In this document: in pieces, positions 12,684 to 20,835 of the stretch
How the letters are laid out: each line of letters starts with the position of its first letter
Position numbering within the stretch: position 1 is the stretch's first letter
NCBI GenBank assembly: GCA_029093145.1
Contig: GCA_029093145.1_4347.1
Length of the DNA stretch: 44,066 bases
From: a phage
Strand: one strand, 5' to 3'
Notes under the pieces: generated by a model
The model's database searches: none
Told to the model about the DNA's origin: nothing
Seen by the model: the letters and a program-made list of their open reading frames with translations, nothing else
Made by a program: the position numbers and the translations under genes

Positions 12684-13096
12684 TGGGCTACTTTGAGGAC
12701 TTAACAAAAGCGTTTGATGTGCCGCTGGTAGCCTTCGGAACCACCAACGGCATCAAGGTAGCGCTTGAAAACATCGACGCGCCGACGTCAACAGATACGC
12801 CGTATCTGGCAAGTTACATGTTGCTGGCGGATACCGAGCAGGCTGACTTATTCTTCACGGAACAACGCGCCGGTGTCTATCAGATAGACATTAACTACGC
12901 ATCGGTGAAAGGTAGCGCGCCAATCAATAAAATGGCAGACTTACTTAACACGGCGTTTAAATCAGGTAAGGCATTTTCGCGTAACGACATCTGCGCCGAG
13001 GTTCAATCGGTTAGCCTGGGGCCGCTGATTGTAGAAAACGGATGGGCCAAACGACCATTGTCAATTAACTTTATTGCATTCACCAAGAGGCTGTGA
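12680..13096 (+). CDS. tail-associated hypothetical protein
   Basis: Position immediately upstream of major tail gene. Confidence 0.4.
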   Translation: MMGYFEDLTKAFDVPLVAFGTTNGIKVALENIDAPTSTDTPYLASYMLLADTEQADLFFTEQRAGVYQIDINYASVKGSAPINKMADLLNTAFKSGKAFSRNDICAEVQSVSLGPLIVENGWAKRPLSINFIAFTKRL

Positions 13097-13098
13097 AT

Positions 13099-14265
13099 AT
13101 GGCTACAACTCCTTTTAAGGGCGCGAATACCGCGCAATTCTATGTGGCGGAAGTGACCCCGGGCGTAACACCGACTAACCCGGTATGGTCGCCACTGCGT
13201 AACACAGGCGGCGTTCCTGCCATTACCCGTGACACGCTGACCTCCAACGAACTTGACGGCAGCCGAGAAACCACATCCATCCGCACCGGTAACAAGCAGG
13301 TTAGCGGAGAATACGCTATTGAGCTTAGCTCTAAAAGTCAGGACGACTGGTTAGCCGGGGCTTTAGGCTCTACGTGGCAATCCGGCGTTTCCCTGTCAGG
13401 ACTATCGATTACCGTCGCACCCGCGGGCAAGACGTTCACACGCGCTACCGGCAGTTTTATCACTGACGGAGTTGGGGTAGGCGACCTGATTGCGTTTACC
13501 GATTTAACAGGCGATAACGTAAAACCATTTATTGTTACTGCAGTAACGGCTACGGTTGTTACTGGTGCGGGCATCCAACACACCCTGACCACCGAGACAA
13601 AAACTAGTAAGGCTAAAACTGGCGACACGTTGGAAACCGGTAACACGTGTAAGACGTTCTCTATCCTTACCTGGTACAAAGGCCAGTGCGGCGGTACTGA
13701 CGCGTACACGTTAACCAAAGGCGTGGAAGTTTCTGGTTTTACCATCGAACAGGCTGTTAACGCGATGGTAACTGGCAGCTTCCCATTCATCGGTCGCAGT
13801 CAGGAGATTCTCACTACGCCGCCGACCGGTTCCAACTTCTCATCTGTTACTTTTGGTGATGAGCCGTTCTCTTCGGTTGACGTTTCCGTGTTCGACGGCT
13901 CTACGCCGTTGCGTTGCGACAGCCTGACTATCACCAACGATAACAGCGCGTCCGCGCAGTTCGAACTTGGTAACACTAACGTAGCGTTTGTGGAGCGTAG
14001 CCGTGCAGCTAACACATTCTCTATCTCTGGCAAGCTGTACGACATGGCGATGATTCAGAAGTTTATCAACGAGCAGCAGGTAGAGATTAACTCTATTCTG
14101 GCAGGGGTAAACGGGGCTATGTCTTTCAGTTTGAAACGTGCAGAGCTTACGGCGGTTACACCTGAGATTGGTGGGCCTGAGTCAATCACTCAGTCCATTG
14201 AAGGCCAGGCTACCGGCAATCAGTACCAGTCGTCTATCGTAATTCAACGTATCACCTACGCATAA
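13099..14265 (+). CDS. major tail protein (putative)
   Basis: ~388 aa ORF upstream of chaperone/tape-measure region; SD AAGAGG before ATG 13099. Confidence 0.6.
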   Translation: MATTPFKGANTAQFYVAEVTPGVTPTNPVWSPLRNTGGVPAITRDTLTSNELDGSRETTSIRTGNKQVSGEYAIELSSKSQDDWLAGALGSTWQSGVSLSGLSITVAPAGKTFTRATGSFITDGVGVGDLIAFTDLTGDNVKPFIVTAVTATVVTGAGIQHTLTTETKTSKAKTGDTLETGNTCKTFSILTWYKGQCGGTDAYTLTKGVEVSGFTIEQAVNAMVTGSFPFIGRSQEILTTPPTGSNFSSVTFGDEPFSSVDVSVFDGSTPLRCDSLTITNDNSASAQFELGNTNVAFVERSRAANTFSISGKLYDMAMIQKFINEQQVEINSILAGVNGAMSFSLKRAELTAVTPEIGGPESITQSIEGQATGNQYQSSIVIQRITYA

Positions 14266-14296
14266 AACTAAGGCCCCTTTCGGGGCCTTTTTCTTA
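14265..14296. terminator. bidirectional terminator
   Basis: AAAACTAAGGCCCC-TTTC-GGGGCCTTTTTCTT; A-run and T-run on both sides of the hairpin. Confidence 0.65.
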
Positions 14297-14848
14297 CAAA
14301 CCTAATTTTAAAGCAATGTCTATAACGTTCGATTTAACGTCACCCGGTATGATGTAGGTGTCGTAATCTTTTACACCACTAACATCGTACAGATAGCCAC
14401 GGCTATCGCAGATGAACGTATAGCCGTCACGATGGAGGCGGACGATTCGCACGTCATGCCCCGCGGCGACGATAGGGGCAACTTCACTGGCGAATCCACC
14501 ATCGGACACTACAAAAACTTCGTCGCCGTCAGGCAAGTTTTCAGCAAGATACTTACCGAAATAATCATCGCCGAATACCGGTTTAATGAATTGCTCAGAA
14601 ATGGCAATCATTAACCGGCGGCGGGACAACCCATTAAGAAAACCCTCGGGTTTTTCTTTCCGCGCCCGGTCGTCGTAGCCGTCGAGAAATTCGTGGTAAG
14701 CATCCTGGCCTAACGCTGCCAAAGCAATATTGAACATTGGATTCTTGAAACTGGTAGTTCCTTTCGCAAAGCCCATTTCTACCAGCGCCATAGCAAGCGT
14801 GTCTTTCCCGCAACCCGCAGGGCCATTAAGAATAATTACCTTAGCCAT
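14294..14848 (-). CDS. P-loop kinase, dNMP-kinase-like
   Basis: Walker A GPAGCGKDT at N-terminus; SRRRLM segment recalled as typical of T4 gp1-type dNMP kinases. Confidence 0.65.
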   Translation of the reverse strand: MAKVIILNGPAGCGKDTLAMALVEMGFAKGTTSFKNPMFNIALAALGQDAYHEFLDGYDDRARKEKPEGFLNGLSRRRLMIAISEQFIKPVFGDDYFGKYLAENLPDGDEVFVVSDGGFASEVAPIVAAGHDVRIVRLHRDGYTFICDSRGYLYDVSGVKDYDTYIIPGDVKSNVIDIALKLGL

Positions 14849-15336
14849 TATTTATCGCTCCCGTGTGGTTTTAAGTGTGTAGAGTTCCCGTTACAGTCGT
14901 ATTCGGTAACTGCGTGTGCAGTTATGCCGAGGTCACGGAAATGCTTTATTACCGCTGGAGAGTCGTCGAACGCACACAAGATTCTTTCCAGTCCGAAAGC
15001 ACGCAACACCTCTTCTTTAATTACGATGTCTTTTCTGTTGTCGTGTTTGCTGCGCATGATTAGCGTGTCAAACCTAACGTTATTCTCTCGTAACCATTCG
15101 CGAGTCTCCTCCTCAGCGTCATCACTTCGCCCGGTAAGGATAATTATAGTAAGTCCGGAATGCCACAGTACGCTACACAAATGGATATTGTCGTATATCG
15201 GAGCGTCATCTTTGCAGGCCATGTTAAATGGCTTCCACGCCCACGTTTCTCCGTAGTTATCTTTTGGTAACAGGTGTAAGCGATGGGTACCGTCGGCCAA
15301 TGTCCCGTCTAAATCGAAAATTACAATATCTTTCAT
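14848..15336 (-). CDS. HAD-superfamily phosphatase (Pnk-phosphatase / 5'-nucleotidase-like)
   Basis: HAD motif I IVIFDLDGTLA, motif II ILTGR, motif IV AFDDS; overlaps flanking genes by 1-4 nt. Confidence 0.7.
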   Translation of the reverse strand: MKDIVIFDLDGTLADGTHRLHLLPKDNYGETWAWKPFNMACKDDAPIYDNIHLCSVLWHSGLTIIILTGRSDDAEEETREWLRENNVRFDTLIMRSKHDNRKDIVIKEEVLRAFGLERILCAFDDSPAVIKHFRDLGITAHAVTEYDCNGNSTHLKPHGSDK

Positions 15337-16463
15337 CCCAGCATCTCCGGTGAAATAGTTAAACGTGCGACCTCGCCATATTCGGCGCTATAAGTAATTA
15401 CATTTGCACTGCGGCCCGACATCCATCCGCCGCGAGAGGCGTAGGCGTCTTTAGCCGCTAAGGTGCGGTGTTGCTCAACAATCATGTTACGGCTTTCTAC
15501 AATCTTCTGGTGGTGCAGATGGCCTACGTGGGCGTAGCTGTAAACACTCTCGCCGAACGCTTTACGGAACTTGGCAATCATAACCGGTTCGATAGCGTCG
15601 AATCGTGCTTTATGCCCGTGATGGAAGAACAGCGTCGTTTTGCCGTGTTGCACCATCTTGTAAACATCCGGCGACGTATCAACAATCACTCGGCTGTCGT
15701 TTGAGTATAAAACCGTGAACATTTCAGCAAGCCATACGGAGCCAACAGGGTCGTGGTTACCTTGAACGATTAAAAGTTTTACTGTGTGATGCTTAACCAG
15801 CGCCATATCAACAACACGGCGGACCATACGAATCATGTAACGTACCAGTTTCTGATAGCGAGTATCCGCATCTAATACATGGCGCGACTCGGGGGTAACG
15901 GCATCAAGACTATCGAAGTGTGCGAAGTCCCCAAGCAGGTTAATAACTCCTGTTCCTGCATCCGGTGCTTTCTGAAACGCCGCGTCGAACCACCGAGAGA
16001 ACAGGTCTTCTGCAATCTTCATGTCCCAGTCGTCGCCGCTCTCATCGGCCCATGCCAGCATACCGAGATGGAAATCAGATACCGTGTAAAGATTGAGTAG
16101 TTTATCGTCACGTTTGGCGCGCGCCGCTTTAACAGGCGCAACGGGCGTAATCTCTGACTTCATGCCCTCTATTACGGCTTTCATCAATTCAACCTGACGT
16201 TCGGCGTCGGTATCAGTCTTAACCCATTGCAACTTAGTGTTGCCGAACTCGTCCACCAGGGACGACGTTCCTTTAATCTTGTAACCGTCTGGTACAAGGT
16301 GGCTAACGTCGCGCCCGTGGCCCACGCCTTTCTTAGCCAGCTTCGCTTTACGGATACGAATTACGCGGTCTGAGATGCCGTATTTACGGGCGATATCTAC
16401 ATTCTTCATACCGGCGTTCAATTCTTCCTGCAACTGTTCGTCGGTTATTTTCTTCCGGGCCAT
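15333..16463 (-). CDS. HTH-fused calcineurin-like metallophosphoesterase
   Basis: N-terminal HTH-like region; metallophosphoesterase motifs SDFHLG, GDFAHFD, GNHD, HHGH, GHLHH; SD GAGGAA. Confidence 0.65.
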   Translation of the reverse strand: MARKKITDEQLQEELNAGMKNVDIARKYGISDRVIRIRKAKLAKKGVGHGRDVSHLVPDGYKIKGTSSLVDEFGNTKLQWVKTDTDAERQVELMKAVIEGMKSEITPVAPVKAARAKRDDKLLNLYTVSDFHLGMLAWADESGDDWDMKIAEDLFSRWFDAAFQKAPDAGTGVINLLGDFAHFDSLDAVTPESRHVLDADTRYQKLVRYMIRMVRRVVDMALVKHHTVKLLIVQGNHDPVGSVWLAEMFTVLYSNDSRVIVDTSPDVYKMVQHGKTTLFFHHGHKARFDAIEPVMIAKFRKAFGESVYSYAHVGHLHHQKIVESRNMIVEQHRTLAAKDAYASRGGWMSGRSANVITYSAEYGEVARLTISPEMLG

Positions 16464-16500
16464 GTTTATTCCTCGTGCTTAGGATTTGTCTTATAGTAGC

Positions 16501-16692
16501 CTACTTCTCTTTCACGTTCGAGTTGCAAGCCCAGATTAAAATGAATACCCACGGCAACAGAATCCACCCGAGAAATAAGTTAGCCATGAATATCGCCAGC
16601 TTTGCTTTATGGTTACGCATATGTGCCACCAAAAACGGGATAAAATAAACGGCTACAAAAATAATTAAGAAGAACATAGTGATACCGGTCAT
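16501..16692 (-). CDS. small membrane protein resembling superinfection-immunity-type proteins
   Basis: Two hydrophobic segments with NLFLGWILLPWVFILIWA motif; SD AGGAG before ATG 16692 (track ORF extends to 16719). Confidence 0.4.
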   Translation of the reverse strand: MTGITMFFLIIFVAVYFIPFLVAHMRNHKAKLAIFMANLFLGWILLPWVFILIWACNSNVKEK

Positions 16693-16743
16693 AACATAAC
16701 TCCTGATTTGAGATAACATCGTTGGTGTAAGTGAATAGTACGC

Positions 16744-16772: not shown

Positions 16773-16870
16773 TAGAATAATTTTGCGCCTAGTGTCGCAC
16801 ACGAAAAGCGGGTGGTTCCCGTCTGGCGCATTTCCTTTAACCAGTAACCTCTTAACCAAAGGATTAAAGA

Positions 16871-17287
16871 TTGAAACTTTCTGATTTTTATTACGAAGCG
16901 GAAGCCGAAAAGGGCGCACGTATGCCGATACCGCTAAAAGACGGTACTGATTCCGGGGAATGGCTTAATGTTGTTTCTCCTGAGGCGGACGTTGCCGTTA
17001 AGGCTATGCGCGCGTTCACCCTTGCATACCGGGCAGTATTAGGGAAATTAAAACCGCTTCGTGATAAGTGCGAAGAGATGAAAGATTTCTCTGAATACAA
17101 CCTGAAGATGGAAGACGCGGCGACGGACCTTAACCGTCAGTTAGCGATTGAATTGGTTAACGGGTGGAGCCTTGACGACGAATTCAATAAAGAGAATCTG
17201 AACACACTCCTGACGCAATATAAACGACTCGCGGAACTTGTTGTTGTGTTTCATAACGAACAACTGCACCAGCTACAGGAAAAGTAG
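16871..17287 (+). CDS. tail assembly chaperone (gpG-like)
   Basis: Position immediately upstream of tape measure; TTG start with SD AAGGA. Confidence 0.55.
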   Translation: MKLSDFYYEAEAEKGARMPIPLKDGTDSGEWLNVVSPEADVAVKAMRAFTLAYRAVLGKLKPLRDKCEEMKDFSEYNLKMEDAATDLNRQLAIELVNGWSLDDEFNKENLNTLLTQYKRLAELVVVFHNEQLHQLQEK

Positions 17288-17292
17288 ACGCG

Positions 17293-17652
17293 TTGCTCCA
17301 GTTCGCCCGTTGGAACTTCATAACCCGCCACAAACGGCGGGAATTTGACAGTATCGCCGATGGGCATAAAGCCGCGCTAATTGCTATGGGGGTTATGCAA
17401 GACGCGCCGGATGCAACGCAGGCCGCTGGGCCGGAATGCCCCCCTGAGCTACTAACCACATTTGAGAAGTACAGGGAAATTAAATTCACCCGCCGAGTGG
17501 ACGACGACGGCATCAAGATGTACCCGCGCGAGCAATTACGATGGTCAGATTTAGTGGCGTACAGCACCGTTTCAGGCCAGAATATAGGGATGTTCGAATC
17601 CGACATCATCATGAGCTTAGACGCTATTTTCGAGGGTAGAAACGATGGCTGA
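17293..17652 (+). CDS. tail assembly chaperone extension (gpT-like), possible frameshift product
   Basis: Open in -1 frame from 17257, overlapping the end of the gpG-like ORF; classic G/GT arrangement before tape measure. Confidence 0.4.
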   Translation: MLQFARWNFITRHKRREFDSIADGHKAALIAMGVMQDAPDATQAAGPECPPELLTTFEKYREIKFTRRVDDDGIKMYPREQLRWSDLVAYSTVSGQNIGMFESDIIMSLDAIFEGRNDG

Positions 17653-19984
17653 TGTAGCTAGTTTAGTAGTAAAAGTATCAGAGCAAGGCGCGAAAGCTAC
17701 ATCAGACCGTCTTGATAACCTTTCCAAGTCTGCAAAGGTAGCCGGAGCTGCGGTAGCGGGCCTCGCTTCCATCGTCGCCGCTACCGCTTACAAGGCCGCA
17801 CAGGAACTGGTAGAATCCCAACGGCAACTGGACAAGATGTCCGCCAGCCTGAAAACACTAACCGGAAGCACGCAGGGTGCAAGACAGGCGTTAAGCATCC
17901 TGCAAGACTTCGCGCGCGACACTCCGTATGGCCTTGAACAGGCGGTAGAGGGATTCCGTAAACTTGTGGCGCTTGGTCTTACACCGTCAGAAGAAGCGTT
18001 GCGTTCCTACGGAAACACCGCCGCTGCTATGGGTAAAGACCTGAATCAGATGATTGAGGCGGTTGCAGACGCTAGTACTTTTGAATTTGAGCGCCTTAAA
18101 GAATTTGGTATCAAGGCCAAACAGAACAAAAACGATGTTGAATTTACATTCCAGGGTACTACTACGGTAGTTAAGAAGAGCGCTGCCGACATCGAGCAAT
18201 ACCTGCTCAACATCGGTAACGTAAACTTCGCGGGGGCTATGGCGGACCAGGCCAACACACTTAACGGGGCCATCGCCAGTGCCAGCGACTCATGGTCGCA
18301 GTTAAAAATGACACTGGCTACCAGTCTTGATGTTGGTGCGCTCGCCGAACCTATCCGATACATCGATGATTTAATCCAGGAACTTAACGCACAGGTTGCA
18401 TCCGGTGAACTTGCCGCAGAGATGCGTATGTGGGGTGACATCGCGTCGGAAGTAGGAAGCGCGATAGAGATGTCGTTCGACGCGGCATTTGGTTTTGTAG
18501 GTGACGCGATAAATGGACTGAATGAACTTTGGGATTTTAGCAGTAAAAGTATCACCGATAGCGGCGAACAAACGGCGACAACCATCGCGGAATCAGCTGC
18601 CGATGCGCTCGATTTCATCGCGGAAGAATTTACCGCGATGGAGCGCTTCTTTGAAGATATGGTTAAAGGGGCACAGGATGCTGGCCGGTTGGTGAAAGCT
18701 GCCTTCACACCAGGGGAATCTGTAGACGTAGCAAAAAACATTAACTTCCAGCTAGGGATGGCACTGGATACTCAGCGCGATGTTGCGGACCTGACCCGTA
18801 AAAGTTTCCGCGAACAGGTGGAGGCTCAGCAAAATATCGTCGCGCTTAAACGCGCAGCGTATGACATCGACAAAGAAGCCGCTAAGGAAGAAGGGCTTAG
18901 TAAATTTAAGGTAACTGGTGCTGGTGGCGGGTCCGAAGATGATAACGCTGGTGCAAAAGCCGCCAAGAAAGCTGCGGATGCGTTCGAGCGCCAGAAGAAA
19001 GCCGCCGAGGATTTCTACTACCAGTCGATTCATCTCAATGATGACGTATTCCAGAAAATAGAAGCCAACCAGGAACAGCAGTTAACCAAGCTACAAGAGT
19101 TTTACAGCAACCAGCTTCTTAGCGACCAGCAATACGAGAACGCCAAGACGCAGATTATGCTGGAGGCGGACACCGCACGTCAGGAAGAATTGGATAAGCG
19201 CGAGAAAGAACGGCAGGAGAAAAAGCAGAAAGGCGACGACTTCATGGCTCAGATTATGGGCCAGAACGCTACTGAGCTTGAGCTTCTCGACATCCAGGAA
19301 CAGCAGAAACTGGCGGTAGCCGATAAGTACCGTGAGCAGGGTCTTATTAGTGAGAAGCAGTATCAGGCTGCGCTTAATGCCATCAACGAGCAGTACGCCA
19401 CGAAGCGTGCCGACGCAACGGCAACGGCCTTCGGTAACATGGCCTCAAACATCGGTTCGGCTTTGGGCGAGGCTTCTGGCGCGTACAAGGCATTCGCTAT
19501 CGTGCAGGCCACTATAGCCACGTACACCGCGGCTATTGAGGCGTATAAGTCAACAGCGGCTATCCCTGTAGTTGGCCCGTTCCTGGCTCCTGTAGCTGCC
19601 GCTGCTGCCGTTGGGGCGGGTATGGCTCAGGTTTCCGCTATCAGGTCAGCACGTGAACAGGGCGGTCAGTTATCAGCGGGACAGGCTTCCACCATCGCCG
19701 AGCGCGGAAAACCAGAAGTTATCATGCCTGCGGGTGCATCGCGTGTGCGCACCGCGCAGCAGATGAAAGAAATTATGGGGCAAAACGGCGGCAGTACCGG
19801 ACCAGCCAATATCAGCATTATAAATAACACCAGTGCACAAATTGGCAACACCAGCGTTGAACAGGACGAAGAAGGCCGCCTACGTATCATCATCGAAGAA
19901 CAGGTAGCCGCCTCTTTGCAGAATAGCAACAGCAAAATATCGAAAGCGAGGAAGGCTACAAGAAACGCACCGGGCTTTAAGTAG
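17645..19984 (+). CDS. tape measure protein
   Basis: 779 aa, Ala/Gln/Glu-rich, follows chaperone pair. Confidence 0.85.
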   Translation: MADVASLVVKVSEQGAKATSDRLDNLSKSAKVAGAAVAGLASIVAATAYKAAQELVESQRQLDKMSASLKTLTGSTQGARQALSILQDFARDTPYGLEQAVEGFRKLVALGLTPSEEALRSYGNTAAAMGKDLNQMIEAVADASTFEFERLKEFGIKAKQNKNDVEFTFQGTTTVVKKSAADIEQYLLNIGNVNFAGAMADQANTLNGAIASASDSWSQLKMTLATSLDVGALAEPIRYIDDLIQELNAQVASGELAAEMRMWGDIASEVGSAIEMSFDAAFGFVGDAINGLNELWDFSSKSITDSGEQTATTIAESAADALDFIAEEFTAMERFFEDMVKGAQDAGRLVKAAFTPGESVDVAKNINFQLGMALDTQRDVADLTRKSFREQVEAQQNIVALKRAAYDIDKEAAKEEGLSKFKVTGAGGGSEDDNAGAKAAKKAADAFERQKKAAEDFYYQSIHLNDDVFQKIEANQEQQLTKLQEFYSNQLLSDQQYENAKTQIMLEADTARQEELDKREKERQEKKQKGDDFMAQIMGQNATELELLDIQEQQKLAVADKYREQGLISEKQYQAALNAINEQYATKRADATATAFGNMASNIGSALGEASGAYKAFAIVQATIATYTAAIEAYKSTAAIPVVGPFLAPVAAAAAVGAGMAQVSAIRSAREQGGQLSAGQASTIAERGKPEVIMPAGASRVRTAQQMKEIMGQNGGSTGPANISIINNTSAQIGNTSVEQDEEGRLRIIIEEQVAASLQNSNSKISKARKATRNAPGFK

Positions 19985-19987
19985 TAA

Positions 19988-20022
19988 CAAAAAAAAAAAT
20001 AAGGCCCGAAAGGGCCTTATTT
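19988..20022. terminator. bidirectional terminator (A10 / hairpin / T-run)
   Basis: AAAAAAAAAAT-AAGGCCC-GAAA-GGGCCTT-ATTTAT. Confidence 0.7.
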
Positions 20023-20835
20023 ATGCGGAACTTTAGGCTTCACTCCGTCCCTACAAAGGGCCAAAATCTCTGGAATTATCTTAGGGTCTGAGGTTAGCAT
20101 CCACTCCGTGGATCCGTCGAAGCTGCCATAGCCCCACTCATTCGACGCTATTTTGTAAGTGTTATGGAAATACACTTCTAGCATTCGTATTTTTGCGCCG
20201 TTATCGTCGCGATGAATGCCAAGCACTTCGAAACCAAAGGGGGTAGCGTTACGCAGGTGACGTATCCGCTGTTTAGGCCTGTTTGATATCCCTATCTTCA
20301 CGAATCGGCCGCATTCACTAAGTAACGCATAGAGGAACCCAGTTTTATTAGGGTCGTACCCGCTAGAGGCACATCCAGGACATCCTTGATTCTGATGAAT
20401 GATATCTGCTATTCGCTGGCTAAACTCACCATGGATATCGCAAAGCCGCACCGCTTTGCTATACTGATTCTTATACCCTCCTTCGAAGCGCAAGAACTTC
20501 CACTTATCACTCACGGCGTAAATCTGCGAGATGCGTTCCTCCTCTGAGTATGAAGGTCTTCCCGCGCAACTAGGACACCCATGTTCCTTACTAATTGCGT
20601 TAGCTATCAAAGTGTCGAACTCCCCGTGTTCGGGACAGAGCCTACGTACCTTAGAATAGGCGTTTCGATAGCCGTTAGGAAATCCTACAAAACTGTATTG
20701 CGGGGCTACCTTAGCTAGTTCCTCTACTACATTGCTCTCAGGTTTTCGCTGTTTGCTTGATGAAGATTCTTTTCCACACCTAGGGCACCCAATACCTTTT
20801 TTTAATACTAGCGGCCGTTGCCGAGAAAGCCCCAT
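20017..20835 (-). CDS. T5orf172 (GIY-YIG-like) domain protein with tandem zinc-ribbon repeats; homing-endonuclease-like
   Basis: Two repeats Y(R/K)N(A/Q)YSK-(V/A)(R/V)(R/L)C-x2-HGEF ... HGCPxC; C-terminal GFLYALLSECGRFVKIGISNRPKQRIRHL resembles T5orf172; antisense between tail genes. Confidence 0.6.
   Translation of the reverse strand: MGLSRQRPLVLKKGIGCPRCGKESSSSKQRKPESNVVEELAKVAPQYSFVGFPNGYRNAYSKVRRLCPEHGEFDTLIANAISKEHGCPSCAGRPSYSEEERISQIYAVSDKWKFLRFEGGYKNQYSKAVRLCDIHGEFSQRIADIIHQNQGCPGCASSGYDPNKTGFLYALLSECGRFVKIGISNRPKQRIRHLRNATPFGFEVLGIHRDDNGAKIRMLEVYFHNTYKIASNEWGYGSFDGSTEWMLTSDPKIIPEILALCRDGVKPKVPHK

What the first reader, a model, noticed from the sequence alone, without database searches (positions are those of the whole stretch)
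17257..17293. Chaperone G/T overlap lacks a canonical slippery heptamer
The -1 frame carrying the gpT-like ORF is open from 17257 and overlaps the last 10 codons of the gpG-like ORF, as expected for a programmed frameshift. The overlap (…CAGCTACAGGAAAAGTAG) has no X-XXY-YYZ heptamer; the nearest candidate is GGAAAAG.
Basis: seen in the sequence. Interest (0 to 1): 0.35.

Follow-up and report, generated by a model that had tools for sequence, protein, structure and literature searches.

The report
Non-canonical tail-chaperone frameshift signal
The phage's two tail-assembly chaperone reading frames are almost certainly joined by a backward ribosome slip on a four-base A_AAG site at the end of the first gene, helped by a conserved folded RNA that starts five bases downstream; this explains the missing textbook seven-base slippery site and is an ordinary variant of a known mechanism.

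Summary
The -1 frame is open from 17257, the G-like ORF stops at TAG 17285-17287, and the 31-nt overlap has no X_XXY_YYZ heptamer. Its only in-frame slippery motif is the tetramer A_AAG (17281-17284), inside G_GAA_AAG.

The window is a Kagunavirus (Guernseyvirinae) whose G/T region is identical to phage Golestan. In 78-79 unique junction sequences from relatives, down to about 45% protein identity:
- A_AAG followed by TAG or TAA is invariant.
- The codon before AAG varies (GAA, GCA, GTA, TCA; canonical GGA or AAA in a few) but always ends in A.
- In two relatives the -1 frame opens only two codons upstream, which pins the shift to A_AAG.
- T-frame coding is conserved from the GTA codon (K-V-x-A-L).
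- The TTG at 17293 is CTG in most relatives.

New here: an invariant GCGYUG, five nt after AAG, is the 5' arm of a covariation-supported helix. In the window, 17290-17299 pairs with 17409-17419 and closes a 130-nt three-way-junction hairpin (-54.4 kcal/mol, z -3.2). Other lineages place the 3' arm about 75 nt further downstream.

This matches the known tetramer-plus-branched-hairpin -1 signals of IS3-family elements. The frameshift is already annotated in some relatives, and the missing heptamer has been noted in print. Nothing has been tested experimentally.

The parts
16871..17287 (+). G-like tail assembly chaperone ORF (138 aa; TTG start in this window, ATG in nearly all relatives; TAG stop)
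   Evidence: ORF list. Pfam Phage_TAC_4, 32.5 bits against a cut-off of 21.1. phrog_15027 profile positions 1-138. Start-codon comparison.
17254..17256 (+). TAA in the -1 frame; 5' limit of the G/T overlap
   Evidence: Read from the sequence. The -1 frame is open from 17257.
17278..17284 (+). Shift site G_GAA_AAG. The core tetramer A_AAG is 17281-17284. Base 17284 (G) is read twice, giving join(16871..17284,17284..17652).
   Evidence: It is the only in-frame slippery motif in the overlap. A_AAG is invariant in 79 of 79 unique relatives, while the codon before it varies but always ends in A. L079 and L087 open the -1 frame only two codons upstream.
17285..17289 (+). Five-nt spacer UAGAC. It contains the G stop codon TAG (17285-17287).
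   Evidence: The spacer is 5 nt in every relative. The stop is TAG or TAA directly after AAG in 78 of 79. In L084 it lies one codon later, with the spacing to the helix unchanged.
17290..17299 (+). 5' arm of the stimulatory helix (GCGUUGC + UCC). It includes the TTG at 17293-17295, which some annotations use as the T start.
   Evidence: GCGYUG is invariant. Synonymous third positions +7 and +10 never vary, unlike the other degenerate third positions in the region. Mean pairing probability at +5 to +10 is 0.83, against 0.10-0.32 at the A_AAG bases -4 to -2.
17409..17419 (+). 3' arm of the helix (GGA-U-GCAACGC), inside the variable linker of the T domain
   Evidence: An exact complement of the 5' arm sits at the same place in 47 of 82 unique relatives, with a U-A to C-G compensatory change. 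Alignment A2: 84.7% of cells paired against 25-50% with slid partners, and 0 of 500 shuffles reached the observed value. Arm duplex -17.9 kcal/mol.
17290..17419 (+). 130-nt branched (three-way-junction) hairpin closed by the two arms
   Evidence: MFE -54.4 kcal/mol, z -3.24, 1 of 200 shuffles folded as well. The same closing helix appears in the MFE of 17276-17430.
17284..17652 (+). T-frame segment decoded after the shift (GTA GAC GCG TTG ... TGA). The fusion product is 260 aa.
   Evidence: Pfam Phage_TAC_18, 66.9 bits. phrog_15027 profile positions 136-259. K-V-x-A-L is conserved from the GTA codon onward. The fusion length matches the joined CDS annotated in fFiEco03 and K1G.
17645..19984 (+). 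Tape measure protein gene; its ATG overlaps the end of T (ATGGCTGA)
   Evidence: phrog_1538, E 1e-206. ORF list.
13093..14265 (+). Tail tube protein gene, the presumed partner of the T domain. Four minus-strand genes separate it from G.
   Evidence: Pfam Phage_tube_2, 128.7 bits.

Best explanation
G (16871-17287) and T are the two frames of a lambda G/GT-type tail assembly chaperone.

Most ribosomes terminate at TAG 17285 and make the 138-aa G protein. A minority slip back one base on A_AAG (17281-17284): the single E. coli tRNA-Lys, after decoding AAG, re-pairs with AAA. Those ribosomes then read GTA GAC GCG TTG... and make a 260-aa G-T fusion, ...LQEK-VDALLQFARW....

Two features favour the slip. 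The first is the shift-prone tetramer. In this phage, near-cognate re-pairing of tRNA-Glu from GAA to GGA may also help. The second is a 130-nt branched hairpin (17290-17419) whose G-C-rich closing stem starts five nt after AAG. That is the position where a structure meets the mRNA entrance of a ribosome holding AAG in its A site.

Shown: the sequence features, their conservation, the covariation in the helix and the predicted fold. Inferred: that slippage occurs, its efficiency, that the hairpin is the stimulator, and whether the stop codon contributes.
For: Family and context
- Pfam and PHROG tail-chaperone matches for both frames, on one fused 259-residue profile, directly upstream of the tape measure gene.
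- The G/T DNA is 100% identical to Kagunavirus Golestan over 781 of 782 bases.

Locating the shift site
- A_AAG followed by TA[AG] is invariant in 79 unique junctions from relatives down to about 45-55% protein identity.
- The preceding codon is GAA, GCA, GTA, TCA, GGA or AAA, but always NNA.
- L079 and L087 leave only CGC-AAA open upstream in the -1 frame.
- Of 87 degenerate third-codon positions between -120 and +150, only four never vary: -4, +1, +7 and +10. All four lie at the junction.
- The T-frame peptide is conserved from K-V-x-A-L, and V139 and A141 are invariant.

The helix
- Window-type lineages, alignment A2 (22 sequences): 84.7% of cells paired against 25-50% with slid partners, 6 pairs with changes on both sides, 0 of 500 shuffles.
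- Lineages with the distal 3' arm, alignment A3 (19 sequences): a 14-bp helix, 92.9% paired against 20-51% slid, 4 pairs with changes on both sides.
- In L104, amino-acid changes on both arms (Y to L, I to Q) keep the pairing.
- In the well-defined cores there are 20 G.U pairs against 1 A.C, which points to plus-strand RNA rather than a DNA inverted repeat.
- The window hairpin folds at -54.4 kcal/mol, z -3.24.
- Predicted pairing probability is 0.10-0.32 at the A_AAG bases and 0.83 in the 5' arm.
- L084 moved its stop one codon downstream but kept the AAG-N5-GCGCUG spacing.

Published precedent
- A_AAG is the best tetramer in E. coli: 5.6% with a strong downstream pseudoknot, near background without one. 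IS3-family stimulators are simple or branched hairpins of 17-140 nt that start 4-10 nt after the motif with a G-C pair (PMC4066793).
- NNA_AAG motifs are used by IS1222, and E. coli has a single tRNA-Lys (PMC5009743).

Other
- The phage encodes no tRNA of its own.
- Joined frameshift CDSs are already deposited for K1G, fFiEco03 and Smarc3.
Against: - No experiment shows a G-T fusion in any member of this phage group, and I found no paper that measures it.
- The tetramer alone is barely shifty (about 0.15% against 0.11% background; PMC4066793), so the model depends on the hairpin being a real stimulator.
- RNAalifold on the pooled family found no consensus structure. The helix emerged only after the relatives were split by 3' arm position, which was a post-hoc step. 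The slid-partner and shuffle controls were run afterwards.
- Many of the sequences are closely related, so there are few independent compensatory events: by my hand count, roughly seven or more.
- Within the window alone, a perfect 7-nt complement somewhere in the T ORF has about a 3% chance expectation.
- The whole 155-nt segment 17276-17430 scores only z -1.76.
- The helix could serve another purpose, and the invariant stop next to AAG could be the true stimulator.
Confidence: 0.7

Rival explanations
1. Shifty-stop model. The slip happens with peptidyl-tRNA-Lys on AAG in the P site while the slowly decoded TAG waits in the A site. The adjacent stop codon is the main stimulator, and the hairpin is secondary or unrelated.
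For: The stop directly follows AAG in 78 of 79 unique relatives. It is always TAG (55) or TAA (24) and never TGA, although GTG-A would be synonymous in the T frame for the TAA lineages. The Val codon's third base (+1) is invariant. Frameshifting next to a stop codon is an established phenomenon (Weiss et al. 1987, cited in PMC5009743).
Against: L084 has a sense codon (TTA) after AAG and its stop one codon later, yet keeps A_AAG and the exact five-nt spacing to GCGCUG. With AAG in the P site, the first base pairs of the helix would already lie inside the ribosome. The helix is conserved by covariation at a fixed distance from AAG, which this model does not explain.
Confidence: 0.15
2. The frameshift occurs at A_AAG, but the conserved helix has another job, such as mRNA stability, masking internal start codons in the rarely translated T region, or control of tape measure translation. 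It does not stimulate slippage.
For: The T region is translated by few ribosomes, so it is free to fold. In half of the relatives the 3' arm lies about 190 nt away, beyond the 17-140 nt range described for IS3-family stimulators (PMC4066793). From my own knowledge, not checked here: lambda G-T frameshifting is reported to need no stimulatory structure.
Against: The 5' arm sits at a fixed five-nt distance from AAG in all 82 unique sequences, including L084. It starts with G-C pairs, as known stimulators do. The tetramer alone is near background in E. coli. The 3' arm has changed position between lineages while the 5' arm has not moved, which suggests the constraint is on the shift-site side.
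Confidence: 0.1
3. There is no frameshift. T is made on its own, either by initiation at the TTG at 17293 or by termination-reinitiation after the G stop.
For: Many GenBank records annotate a separate T ORF from this codon. A TTG lies five nt after the stop. The Shashou genome announcement left the ORF as a separate hypothetical protein because it saw no canonical slippery sequence (PMC6776780).
Against: The codon is CTG in 61 of 79 unique relatives. There is no conserved Shine-Dalgarno sequence. The codon is buried in the conserved helix. T-frame residues upstream of it are conserved with a codon-like pattern of variation. The A at -4 is invariant although the amino acid it helps encode varies, which only re-pairing of tRNA-Lys explains.
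Confidence: 0.04
4. RNA polymerase slippage on the A run makes a -1 mRNA.
For: The site contains a run of four A.
Against: From my own knowledge, not checked here: productive transcriptional slippage in bacteria needs runs of about seven or more A or T. In many relatives the run is only AAA (GCAAAG, GTAAAG, TCAAAG).
Confidence: 0.01

Closest known systems
Phage lambda gpG/gpGT -1 programmed frameshift at G_GGA_AAG (Levin 1993; Xu, Hendrix and Duda 2004, 2013), as summarised in PMC5009743 and PMC7618472
   Same: - Two overlapping chaperone frames directly upstream of the tape measure gene.
- A -1 shift near the end of G, with tRNA-Lys slipping from AAG to AAA.
- A short G product and a rarer G-T fusion that sets a ratio.
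- The window's site differs from lambda's heptamer by one base (G_GAA_AAG against G_GGA_AAG), and relative L062 has exactly lambda's heptamer.
   Different: - The P-site codon cannot re-pair by standard rules, and in relatives it is GCA, GTA or TCA, so the conserved element is a tetramer.
- The site abuts the stop codon.
- A covarying branched hairpin follows at five nt. From my own knowledge, not checked here: no such structure is reported as required in lambda.
- There is no detectable sequence similarity to lambda G or T; the Pfam families are Phage_TAC_4 and Phage_TAC_18.
Tetramer and hexamer -1 signals of IS3-family elements (A_AAG; IS1222 G_CGA_AAG) with downstream simple or branched hairpins; IS911 three-way junction (PMC4066793, PMC5009743)
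   Same: - Single-tRNA slippage on A_AAG, preceded by an NNA codon.
- Dependence on a downstream structure that starts 4-10 nt after the motif with a G-C pair.
- Branched hairpins of up to about 130-140 nt. The window's element is 130 nt, begins five nt after AAG and has 0.42 kcal/mol per nt, against 0.45 +/- 0.12 for IS3-family hairpins.
   Different: - It lies in a phage tail chaperone gene, not a transposase gene.
- There is no conserved upstream Shine-Dalgarno-like element.
- In half of the phage family the closing helix spans about 204 nt, longer than the range described for IS elements.
E. coli dnaX A_AAA_AAG signal (upstream Shine-Dalgarno element plus stem-loop)
   Same: The AAG lysine codon is decoded by the single mnm5s2U tRNA-Lys, and a downstream stem follows after a short spacer. 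Relatives L095 and L096 have the same heptamer, A_AAA_AAG.
   Different: The window has no heptamer and no Shine-Dalgarno element. It has a large branched structure instead of a simple hairpin. From my own knowledge, not checked here: dnaX frameshifts at about 50%; the efficiency here is unknown and probably low.
Long-distance base pairing that stimulates -1 frameshifting in barley yellow dwarf virus (PMC7618472)
   Same: The stimulator depends on pairing between the region just 3' of the shift site and a distant downstream sequence.
   Different: The distance is 120-200 nt here, against 4 kb there. Here the distant strand closes the stem itself, whereas in BYDV it binds the bulge of a local hairpin. 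The ribosome is bacterial, not eukaryotic.
Existing annotation of the same phage group: joined frameshift CDSs in K1G ORF22B (GU196277), fFiEco03 and Serratia phage Smarc3; the Shashou announcement (PMC6776780)
   Same: These are the same genes with the same -1 relationship.
   Different: Within the held library I found no record or paper that names the A_AAG site, its conservation or the downstream helix. Most records annotate two separate ORFs with TTG or CTG starts.

Membership tests
Lambda-type G/GT tail assembly chaperone pair | Two ORFs directly upstream of the tape measure gene, in the tail gene block | tested here: met
   G is 16871-17287, T runs to 17652, and the tape measure gene is 17645-19984. 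The tail tube gene (13093-14265) is upstream, but four minus-strand genes separate it from G.
Lambda-type G/GT tail assembly chaperone pair | The second ORF lies in the -1 frame, overlaps the end of the first, and has no credible start of its own | tested here: met
   The -1 frame is open from 17257. The only start candidate, TTG 17293, is CTG in 61 of 79 relatives, has no conserved Shine-Dalgarno sequence and lies inside a helix.
Lambda-type G/GT tail assembly chaperone pair | Protein homology to tail assembly chaperone families | tested here: met
   Phage_TAC_4, 32.5 bits against 21.1. Phage_TAC_18, 66.9 bits against 27. phrog_15027 covers both halves. No solved-structure relative was found by sequence.
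Lambda-type G/GT tail assembly chaperone pair | Canonical X_XXY_YYZ slippery heptamer in the overlap | tested here: not met
   There is none in any frame of 17250-17287. Canonical heptamers occur at the same place only in L062 (G_GGA_AAG) and L095/L096 (A_AAA_AAG). Xu et al. 2004 did not treat a canonical heptamer as obligatory (my own knowledge of that paper, which is not held in the library).
Lambda-type G/GT tail assembly chaperone pair | A G-T fusion protein is made at a low fixed ratio and is needed for tail assembly | not testable with these tools
   This needs reporter assays, proteomics of infected cells or genetics. No such data were found for Guernseyvirinae.
Tetramer (Z_ZZN / NNA_AAG) -1 frameshift signals, as in IS3-family elements | [quoted passage not shown] | tested here: met
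   A_AAG is at 17281-17284 in the G frame and is invariant in 79 of 79 unique relatives. The base before AAG is always A.
Tetramer (Z_ZZN / NNA_AAG) -1 frameshift signals, as in IS3-family elements | A downstream hairpin or branched hairpin of 17-140 nt that starts 4-10 nt after the motif with a G-C pair plus at least 3 more pairs, and has an unfolding energy of at least 7.6 kcal/mol (rules of PMC4066793) | tested here: met
   The window element is 17290-17419: 130 nt, five-nt spacer, first pairs G-C, C-G, G-C, and -54.4 kcal/mol. The closing helix is supported by covariation. Lineages with the distal arm span about 204 nt and exceed the size rule.
Tetramer (Z_ZZN / NNA_AAG) -1 frameshift signals, as in IS3-family elements | The host decodes AAA and AAG with a single tRNA-Lys (UUU anticodon) | not tested
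   This is established for E. coli (PMC5009743). The window does not state its host; the closest relatives infect E. coli. The phage carries no tRNA genes.
Shifty-stop frameshift sites | A stop codon directly 3' of the slippery codon, which is required for the shift | tested here: inconclusive
   Adjacency holds in the window and in 78 of 79 relatives. L084 has a sense codon in that position. Whether the stop is required cannot be tested here.
Transcriptional slippage sites | A long homopolymeric A or T run | tested here: not met
   The window has only four A, and many relatives have three.

The most novel reading that the evidence does not exclude
The most novel reading not excluded is this. 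Guernseyvirinae-type tail chaperone genes use a frameshift stimulator whose closing helix spans 120-200 nt of the T coding region itself. The 5' arm is fixed five nt after A_AAG. The 3' arm has moved between two sites during evolution, the variable linker and the KF(I)QR codons, and some lineages carry both.

Only frameshifted ribosomes translate the T region. Each one would therefore melt the stimulator behind it and briefly switch frameshifting off for the ribosomes that follow. That would be a built-in negative feedback holding the G:GT ratio steady regardless of translation rate.
Probability: 0.15. Interest if true: 0.65.

Novelty: new member of a known kind. Interest (0 to 1): 0.42.

Why it matters
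Practical value: several hundred deposited Kagunavirus, Jerseyvirus and related Serratia phage genomes, many of them therapy or biocontrol candidates, mostly annotate T as a separate hypothetical protein with a TTG or CTG start. The evidence here supports one annotation rule for all of them: join at A_AAG with the G of AAG read twice. In this window that is join(16871..17284,17284..17652).

For recoding research:
- It adds a well-conserved natural case of tetramer-based -1 frameshifting outside insertion sequences.
- The codon before AAG varies naturally (GAA, GCA, GTA, TCA, GGA, AAA), which gives a ready-made series for testing P-site effects.
- The stimulatory helix shows compensatory changes that alter amino acids on both arms, and its 3' arm has changed position between lineages.
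- It shows that frameshift finders which look only for heptamers, or only for local hairpins, will miss real sites.

Tried and rejected
- **Local hairpin CCCGCC-ACAAAC-GGCGGG (17325-17342).** I first took this as a candidate stimulator. It starts about 40 nt after the shift site and is degraded in the Salmonella-phage lineage (CGCC...GGCG only). It is just one branch of the larger fold.
- **Fold of -6 to +96.** This gave an outer helix UAG.ACGCG / CGCGCUA with z -3.8 in the window. Only 6 of 12 diverse relatives had z below -2.4, and the pairs were poorly kept. With more downstream sequence the 5' arm pairs instead with +128 to +134 at probability about 1.0.
- **RNAalifold on all 78 unique junctions.** It returned only a 3-bp hairpin, because the 3' arm sits at two different positions in the family.
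- **Upstream Shine-Dalgarno-like stimulator.** Anti-SD hybridisation profiles show no conserved site. At most 30% of representatives reach -4 kcal/mol at any position.
- **Rfam.** No family matches the junction. The only hit within 17100-17700 is a chance snoRNA match, E 0.19.
- **PDB sequence search with the fusion-protein alignment.** Nothing below E 0.09.
- **G.U against A.C strand test over all helix columns.** Uninformative (44 against 50), because the terminal columns are unpaired in the window lineage. Restricted to the core columns it gives 20 against 1.
- **Xu et al. 2004.** The paper could not be read because it is not held in the library.
- **Not run.** Structure prediction of the fusion and large protein-database searches were skipped, because they would not bear on the shift mechanism.
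Full report
**Observation.** The coordinates and the description hold. The G-like ORF runs 16871-17287 and ends ...CAG GAA AAG TAG. The -1 frame has a TAA at 17254-17256, is open from 17257 and continues to the TGA at 17650-17652. A scan of the 31-nt overlap finds no X_XXY_YYZ heptamer in any frame. The single in-frame Z_ZZN tetramer is A_AAG at 17281-17284. GGAAAAG is at 17278-17284 and a TTG is at 17293, both as stated.

**What the genes are.** The G ORF passes the Pfam threshold for Phage_TAC_4 and the T frame passes it for Phage_TAC_18. Both halves match one 259-residue PHROG profile of a fused tail assembly chaperone: G on profile positions 1-138, T on 136-259. The next gene, 17645-19984, is the tape measure protein, and 13093-14265 is a tail tube protein.

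The window is a Kagunavirus (Guernseyvirinae). The 1.2 kb around the finding is 90-98% identical to many E. coli siphophages. The G/T DNA is 100% identical to phage Golestan over 781 of 782 bases; the one uncovered base, the first of the start codon, differs. A tblastn search with the fused 260-aa protein finds 518 phage records. In 495 of them one place covers at least 80% of the query, and almost all listed hits are in two pieces, so the -1 relationship is general.

Three deposited genomes already annotate a joined frameshift CDS: K1G ORF22B, fFiEco03 and Serratia phage Smarc3. Most others list two ORFs.

**Where the shift happens.** I collected 112 loci from IMG/VR and GenBank and extracted the junction from 107 of them. 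These give 79 unique 270-nt segments from relatives down to about 45-55% protein identity.
- The six bases A AAG TA (positions -4 to +1 relative to the first base of the stop) are invariant apart from one base in one sequence, while neighbouring wobble positions have entropies of 0.8-2.0 bits.
- The codon before AAG is GAA, GCA, GTA, TCA, GGA or AAA. The amino acid changes, but the third base is always A.
- L062 has lambda's canonical G_GGA_AAG, and L095/L096 have dnaX's A_AAA_AAG, at this same place.
- In L079 and L087 the -1 frame opens only two codons before GTA. The shift must then occur on GCA_AAG, where A_AAG is the only slippery element.
- Downstream, the T-frame peptide K-V-x-A-L-(Y/L/F) is conserved from the GTA codon onward, with V and A invariant. 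Upstream of it the -1 frame is unconserved and broken by stops.
- The window's TTG at 17293 is CTG in 61 of 79 relatives.

Together these results place the shift at A_AAG, with the G of AAG read twice. The product is a 260-aa fusion, the length of the annotated joined CDSs.

**Why a tetramer can suffice.** In E. coli, A_AAG is by far the most shift-prone tetramer. It gives 5.6% with a strong downstream pseudoknot but is close to background without a stimulator (PMC4066793). NNA_AAG motifs are used naturally by IS1222. E. coli has a single tRNA-Lys that reads both AAA and AAG (PMC5009743). The phage encodes no tRNA. A stimulator is therefore expected.

**The stimulator.** Of 87 degenerate third-codon positions between -120 and +150, only four never vary: -4 and +1 at the shift site, and +7 and +10 inside an invariant GCGYUG at +5 to +10. 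Partition-function folding of 30 representative sequences predicts the A_AAG bases -4 to -2 to be mostly unpaired (0.10-0.32) and +5 to +11 to be paired (0.77-0.91). In ten of the 30, from at least eight distinct lineages, the partner is +129 to +134 at probability 0.64-1.0, at least 0.88 in nine of them.

An exact reverse complement of the six bases lies at +129 in 47 unique sequences and at +203 in 28. The remaining seven pair with one wobble or one terminal mismatch.

In the window-type group the 3' arm sits in the variable linker of T. There the encoded tripeptide changes (A-T-Q, T-T-Q, A-A-R, T-A-Q, P-A-Q and others), but CARCGC is kept. GCGUUG pairs with CAACGC in 12 sequences and GCGCUG with CAGCGC in 10, with none unpaired. 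Over 11 pairs, 84.7% of cells are paired against 25-50% when the partner is slid. Six pairs have changes on both sides, and 0 of 500 shuffles reach the observed values (alignment A2).

In the other group (Jersey, SETP3, Eta, Smarc3, Bas73 and others) a helix of up to 14 bp joins the A-L-Y-E-F codons to the K-F-I-Q-R codons. Here 92.9% of cells are paired against 20-51% slid, and four pairs have changes on both sides (alignment A3).
- In L104 the arms read GCGCUGUUGAA and UUCAACAGCGC. Amino-acid changes on both sides (Y to L, I to Q) keep three pairs intact.
- L096 has two further compensatory pairs.
- In the core columns there are 20 G.U pairs against 1 A.C, as expected for plus-strand RNA rather than a DNA inverted repeat.
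- Arm duplex energies are -14.5 to -23.8 kcal/mol, and -17.9 in the window.

**The element in this window.** GCGUUGC-UCC (17290-17299) pairs with GGA-U-GCAACGC (17409-17419) and closes a 130-nt three-way-junction hairpin. It folds at -54.4 kcal/mol with z -3.24, and the same helix appears in the MFE of 17276-17430. The spacer between AAG and the first G-C pair is five nt (UAGAC) and contains the stop codon.

[quoted passage not shown] Its 0.42 kcal/mol per nt is close to the IS3-family mean of 0.45 (PMC4066793). The TTG that some annotations use as the T start lies inside the 5' arm.

**Role of the stop codon.** The stop directly follows AAG in 78 of 79 unique relatives and is TAG or TAA, never TGA. 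That would fit a shifty-stop contribution. L084, however, has AAG TTA TAG. Its stop moved one codon while the AAG-N5-GCGCUG spacing was kept. I therefore rank the helix spacing above stop adjacency, but I cannot separate A-site slippage from P-site slippage with these tools.

**Rivals.**
- Independent initiation of T, or termination-reinitiation, is disfavoured by the evidence listed above.
- Transcriptional slippage is unlikely on a run of three or four A.
- There is no conserved upstream Shine-Dalgarno-like element and no Rfam family at the site.
- The helix could have a function unrelated to frameshifting. Its fixed distance from AAG argues against this, especially as the 3' arm occupies different positions in different lineages.

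**Caveats.**
- Nothing here is experimental.
- The helix was recognised after splitting the family by arm position.
- The sequences are related, so independent compensatory events number roughly seven or more by my hand count, not dozens.
- In the window alone, a 7-nt complement somewhere in T has about a 3% chance expectation.
- RNAalifold on the pooled set found nothing.

**Comparison and novelty.** Functionally this is a lambda-type G/GT chaperone pair. Its recoding signal is of the IS3-element type (tetramer plus branched hairpin), not the lambda type (heptamer; from my own knowledge, reported to need no structure). Every component is known. The frameshift is already annotated in some relatives, and the missing heptamer has been noted in print.

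What I could not find described within the held library is:
- the identification of A_AAG as the conserved site;
- the covarying helix;
- the two alternative positions of its 3' arm.

I therefore class this as a new member of a known kind, of moderate interest. Its value is mainly for correct annotation of several hundred phage genomes and as a natural test set for tetramer frameshifting.

**Verdict.**
- Observation confirmed; interpretation supported.
- Best explanation: -1 frameshift at A_AAG (about 0.85), with the 17290-17419 hairpin as stimulator (about 0.6-0.65).
- Overall confidence 0.7.

Noticed in passing
window 16871-16873: The G start codon is TTG in this window. Golestan, otherwise identical over the G/T region, has ATG, as do 75 of 82 unique relatives (AAAGATTGAAAC against AAAGAATGAAAC). 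This may be a real variant that lowers G initiation and so alters the G:GT balance, or a sequencing error.
   Followed up: partly
window 16782-16846 (+): An Rfam int-alpA RNA (RF02996) match just above its gathering score (36.6 against 35.8 bits, E 4.7e-4) lies in the leader directly upstream of the G ribosome-binding site. It is the only Rfam hit in the whole window.
   Followed up: no
window 14294-16719 (-): Four minus-strand genes interrupt the tail module between the tube gene and the chaperones. They are a P-loop kinase-like ORF, a HAD_PNKP phosphatase, a metallophosphatase annotated elsewhere as a DNA repair exonuclease, and an Imm_superinfect superinfection immunity protein.
   Followed up: partly
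window 20017-20835 (-): A 272-aa minus-strand ORF right after the tape measure gene has a CapR zinc-ribbon region plus T5orf172/MUG113 domains. It looks like a homing-endonuclease-type insertion in the tail module.
   Followed up: partly
L024 1641-1810 (IMGVR_UViG_2899916314_000002): A distant relative (about 35-47% identity over part of G) ends its G ORF with the canonical heptamer A_AAA_AAC followed directly by TGA. A GC-rich branched hairpin of about 105 nt starts about 3 nt after the stop (the 170-nt segment folds at -83.6 kcal/mol). The pattern of shift site, stop and large hairpin may therefore extend beyond the Guernseyvirinae.
   Followed up: partly
L079, L081, L082, L085, L087, L091 (positions +44, +122, +203 after the G stop): These relatives carry the complement CAGCGC at both the linker site (+122) and the distal site (+203), and all but L079 also at +44. 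They have several possible 3' partners for the 5' arm and may be intermediates in the change of arm position.
   Followed up: partly
79 unique junctions from the fetched loci (position 0 to +2): The G stop is TAG in 55 and TAA in 24, and never TGA, although GTG-A would be synonymous in the T frame for the TAA lineages. The reason is unexplained; it could reflect a preference for RF1-read stops or for A at +1.
   Followed up: partly
L004 / L033 (Salmonella phage SS3e, AY730274 / NC_006940): Here the G-like ORF is cut short by a TGA after about 95 codons, and the fused query matches as a single piece at only 70.5% identity, so the two-frame pattern of the other relatives is not seen. In this old record that looks like indel sequencing errors rather than a natural fusion.
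   Followed up: no
window 17645-17652: The tape measure ATG overlaps the end of T (ATGGCTGA). The ATGGCTGA overlap is present in all eight most common junction variants among the relatives, which cover 70 of the 82 unique sequences. This suggests translational coupling or a shared constraint at the T/tape-measure junction.
   Followed up: no
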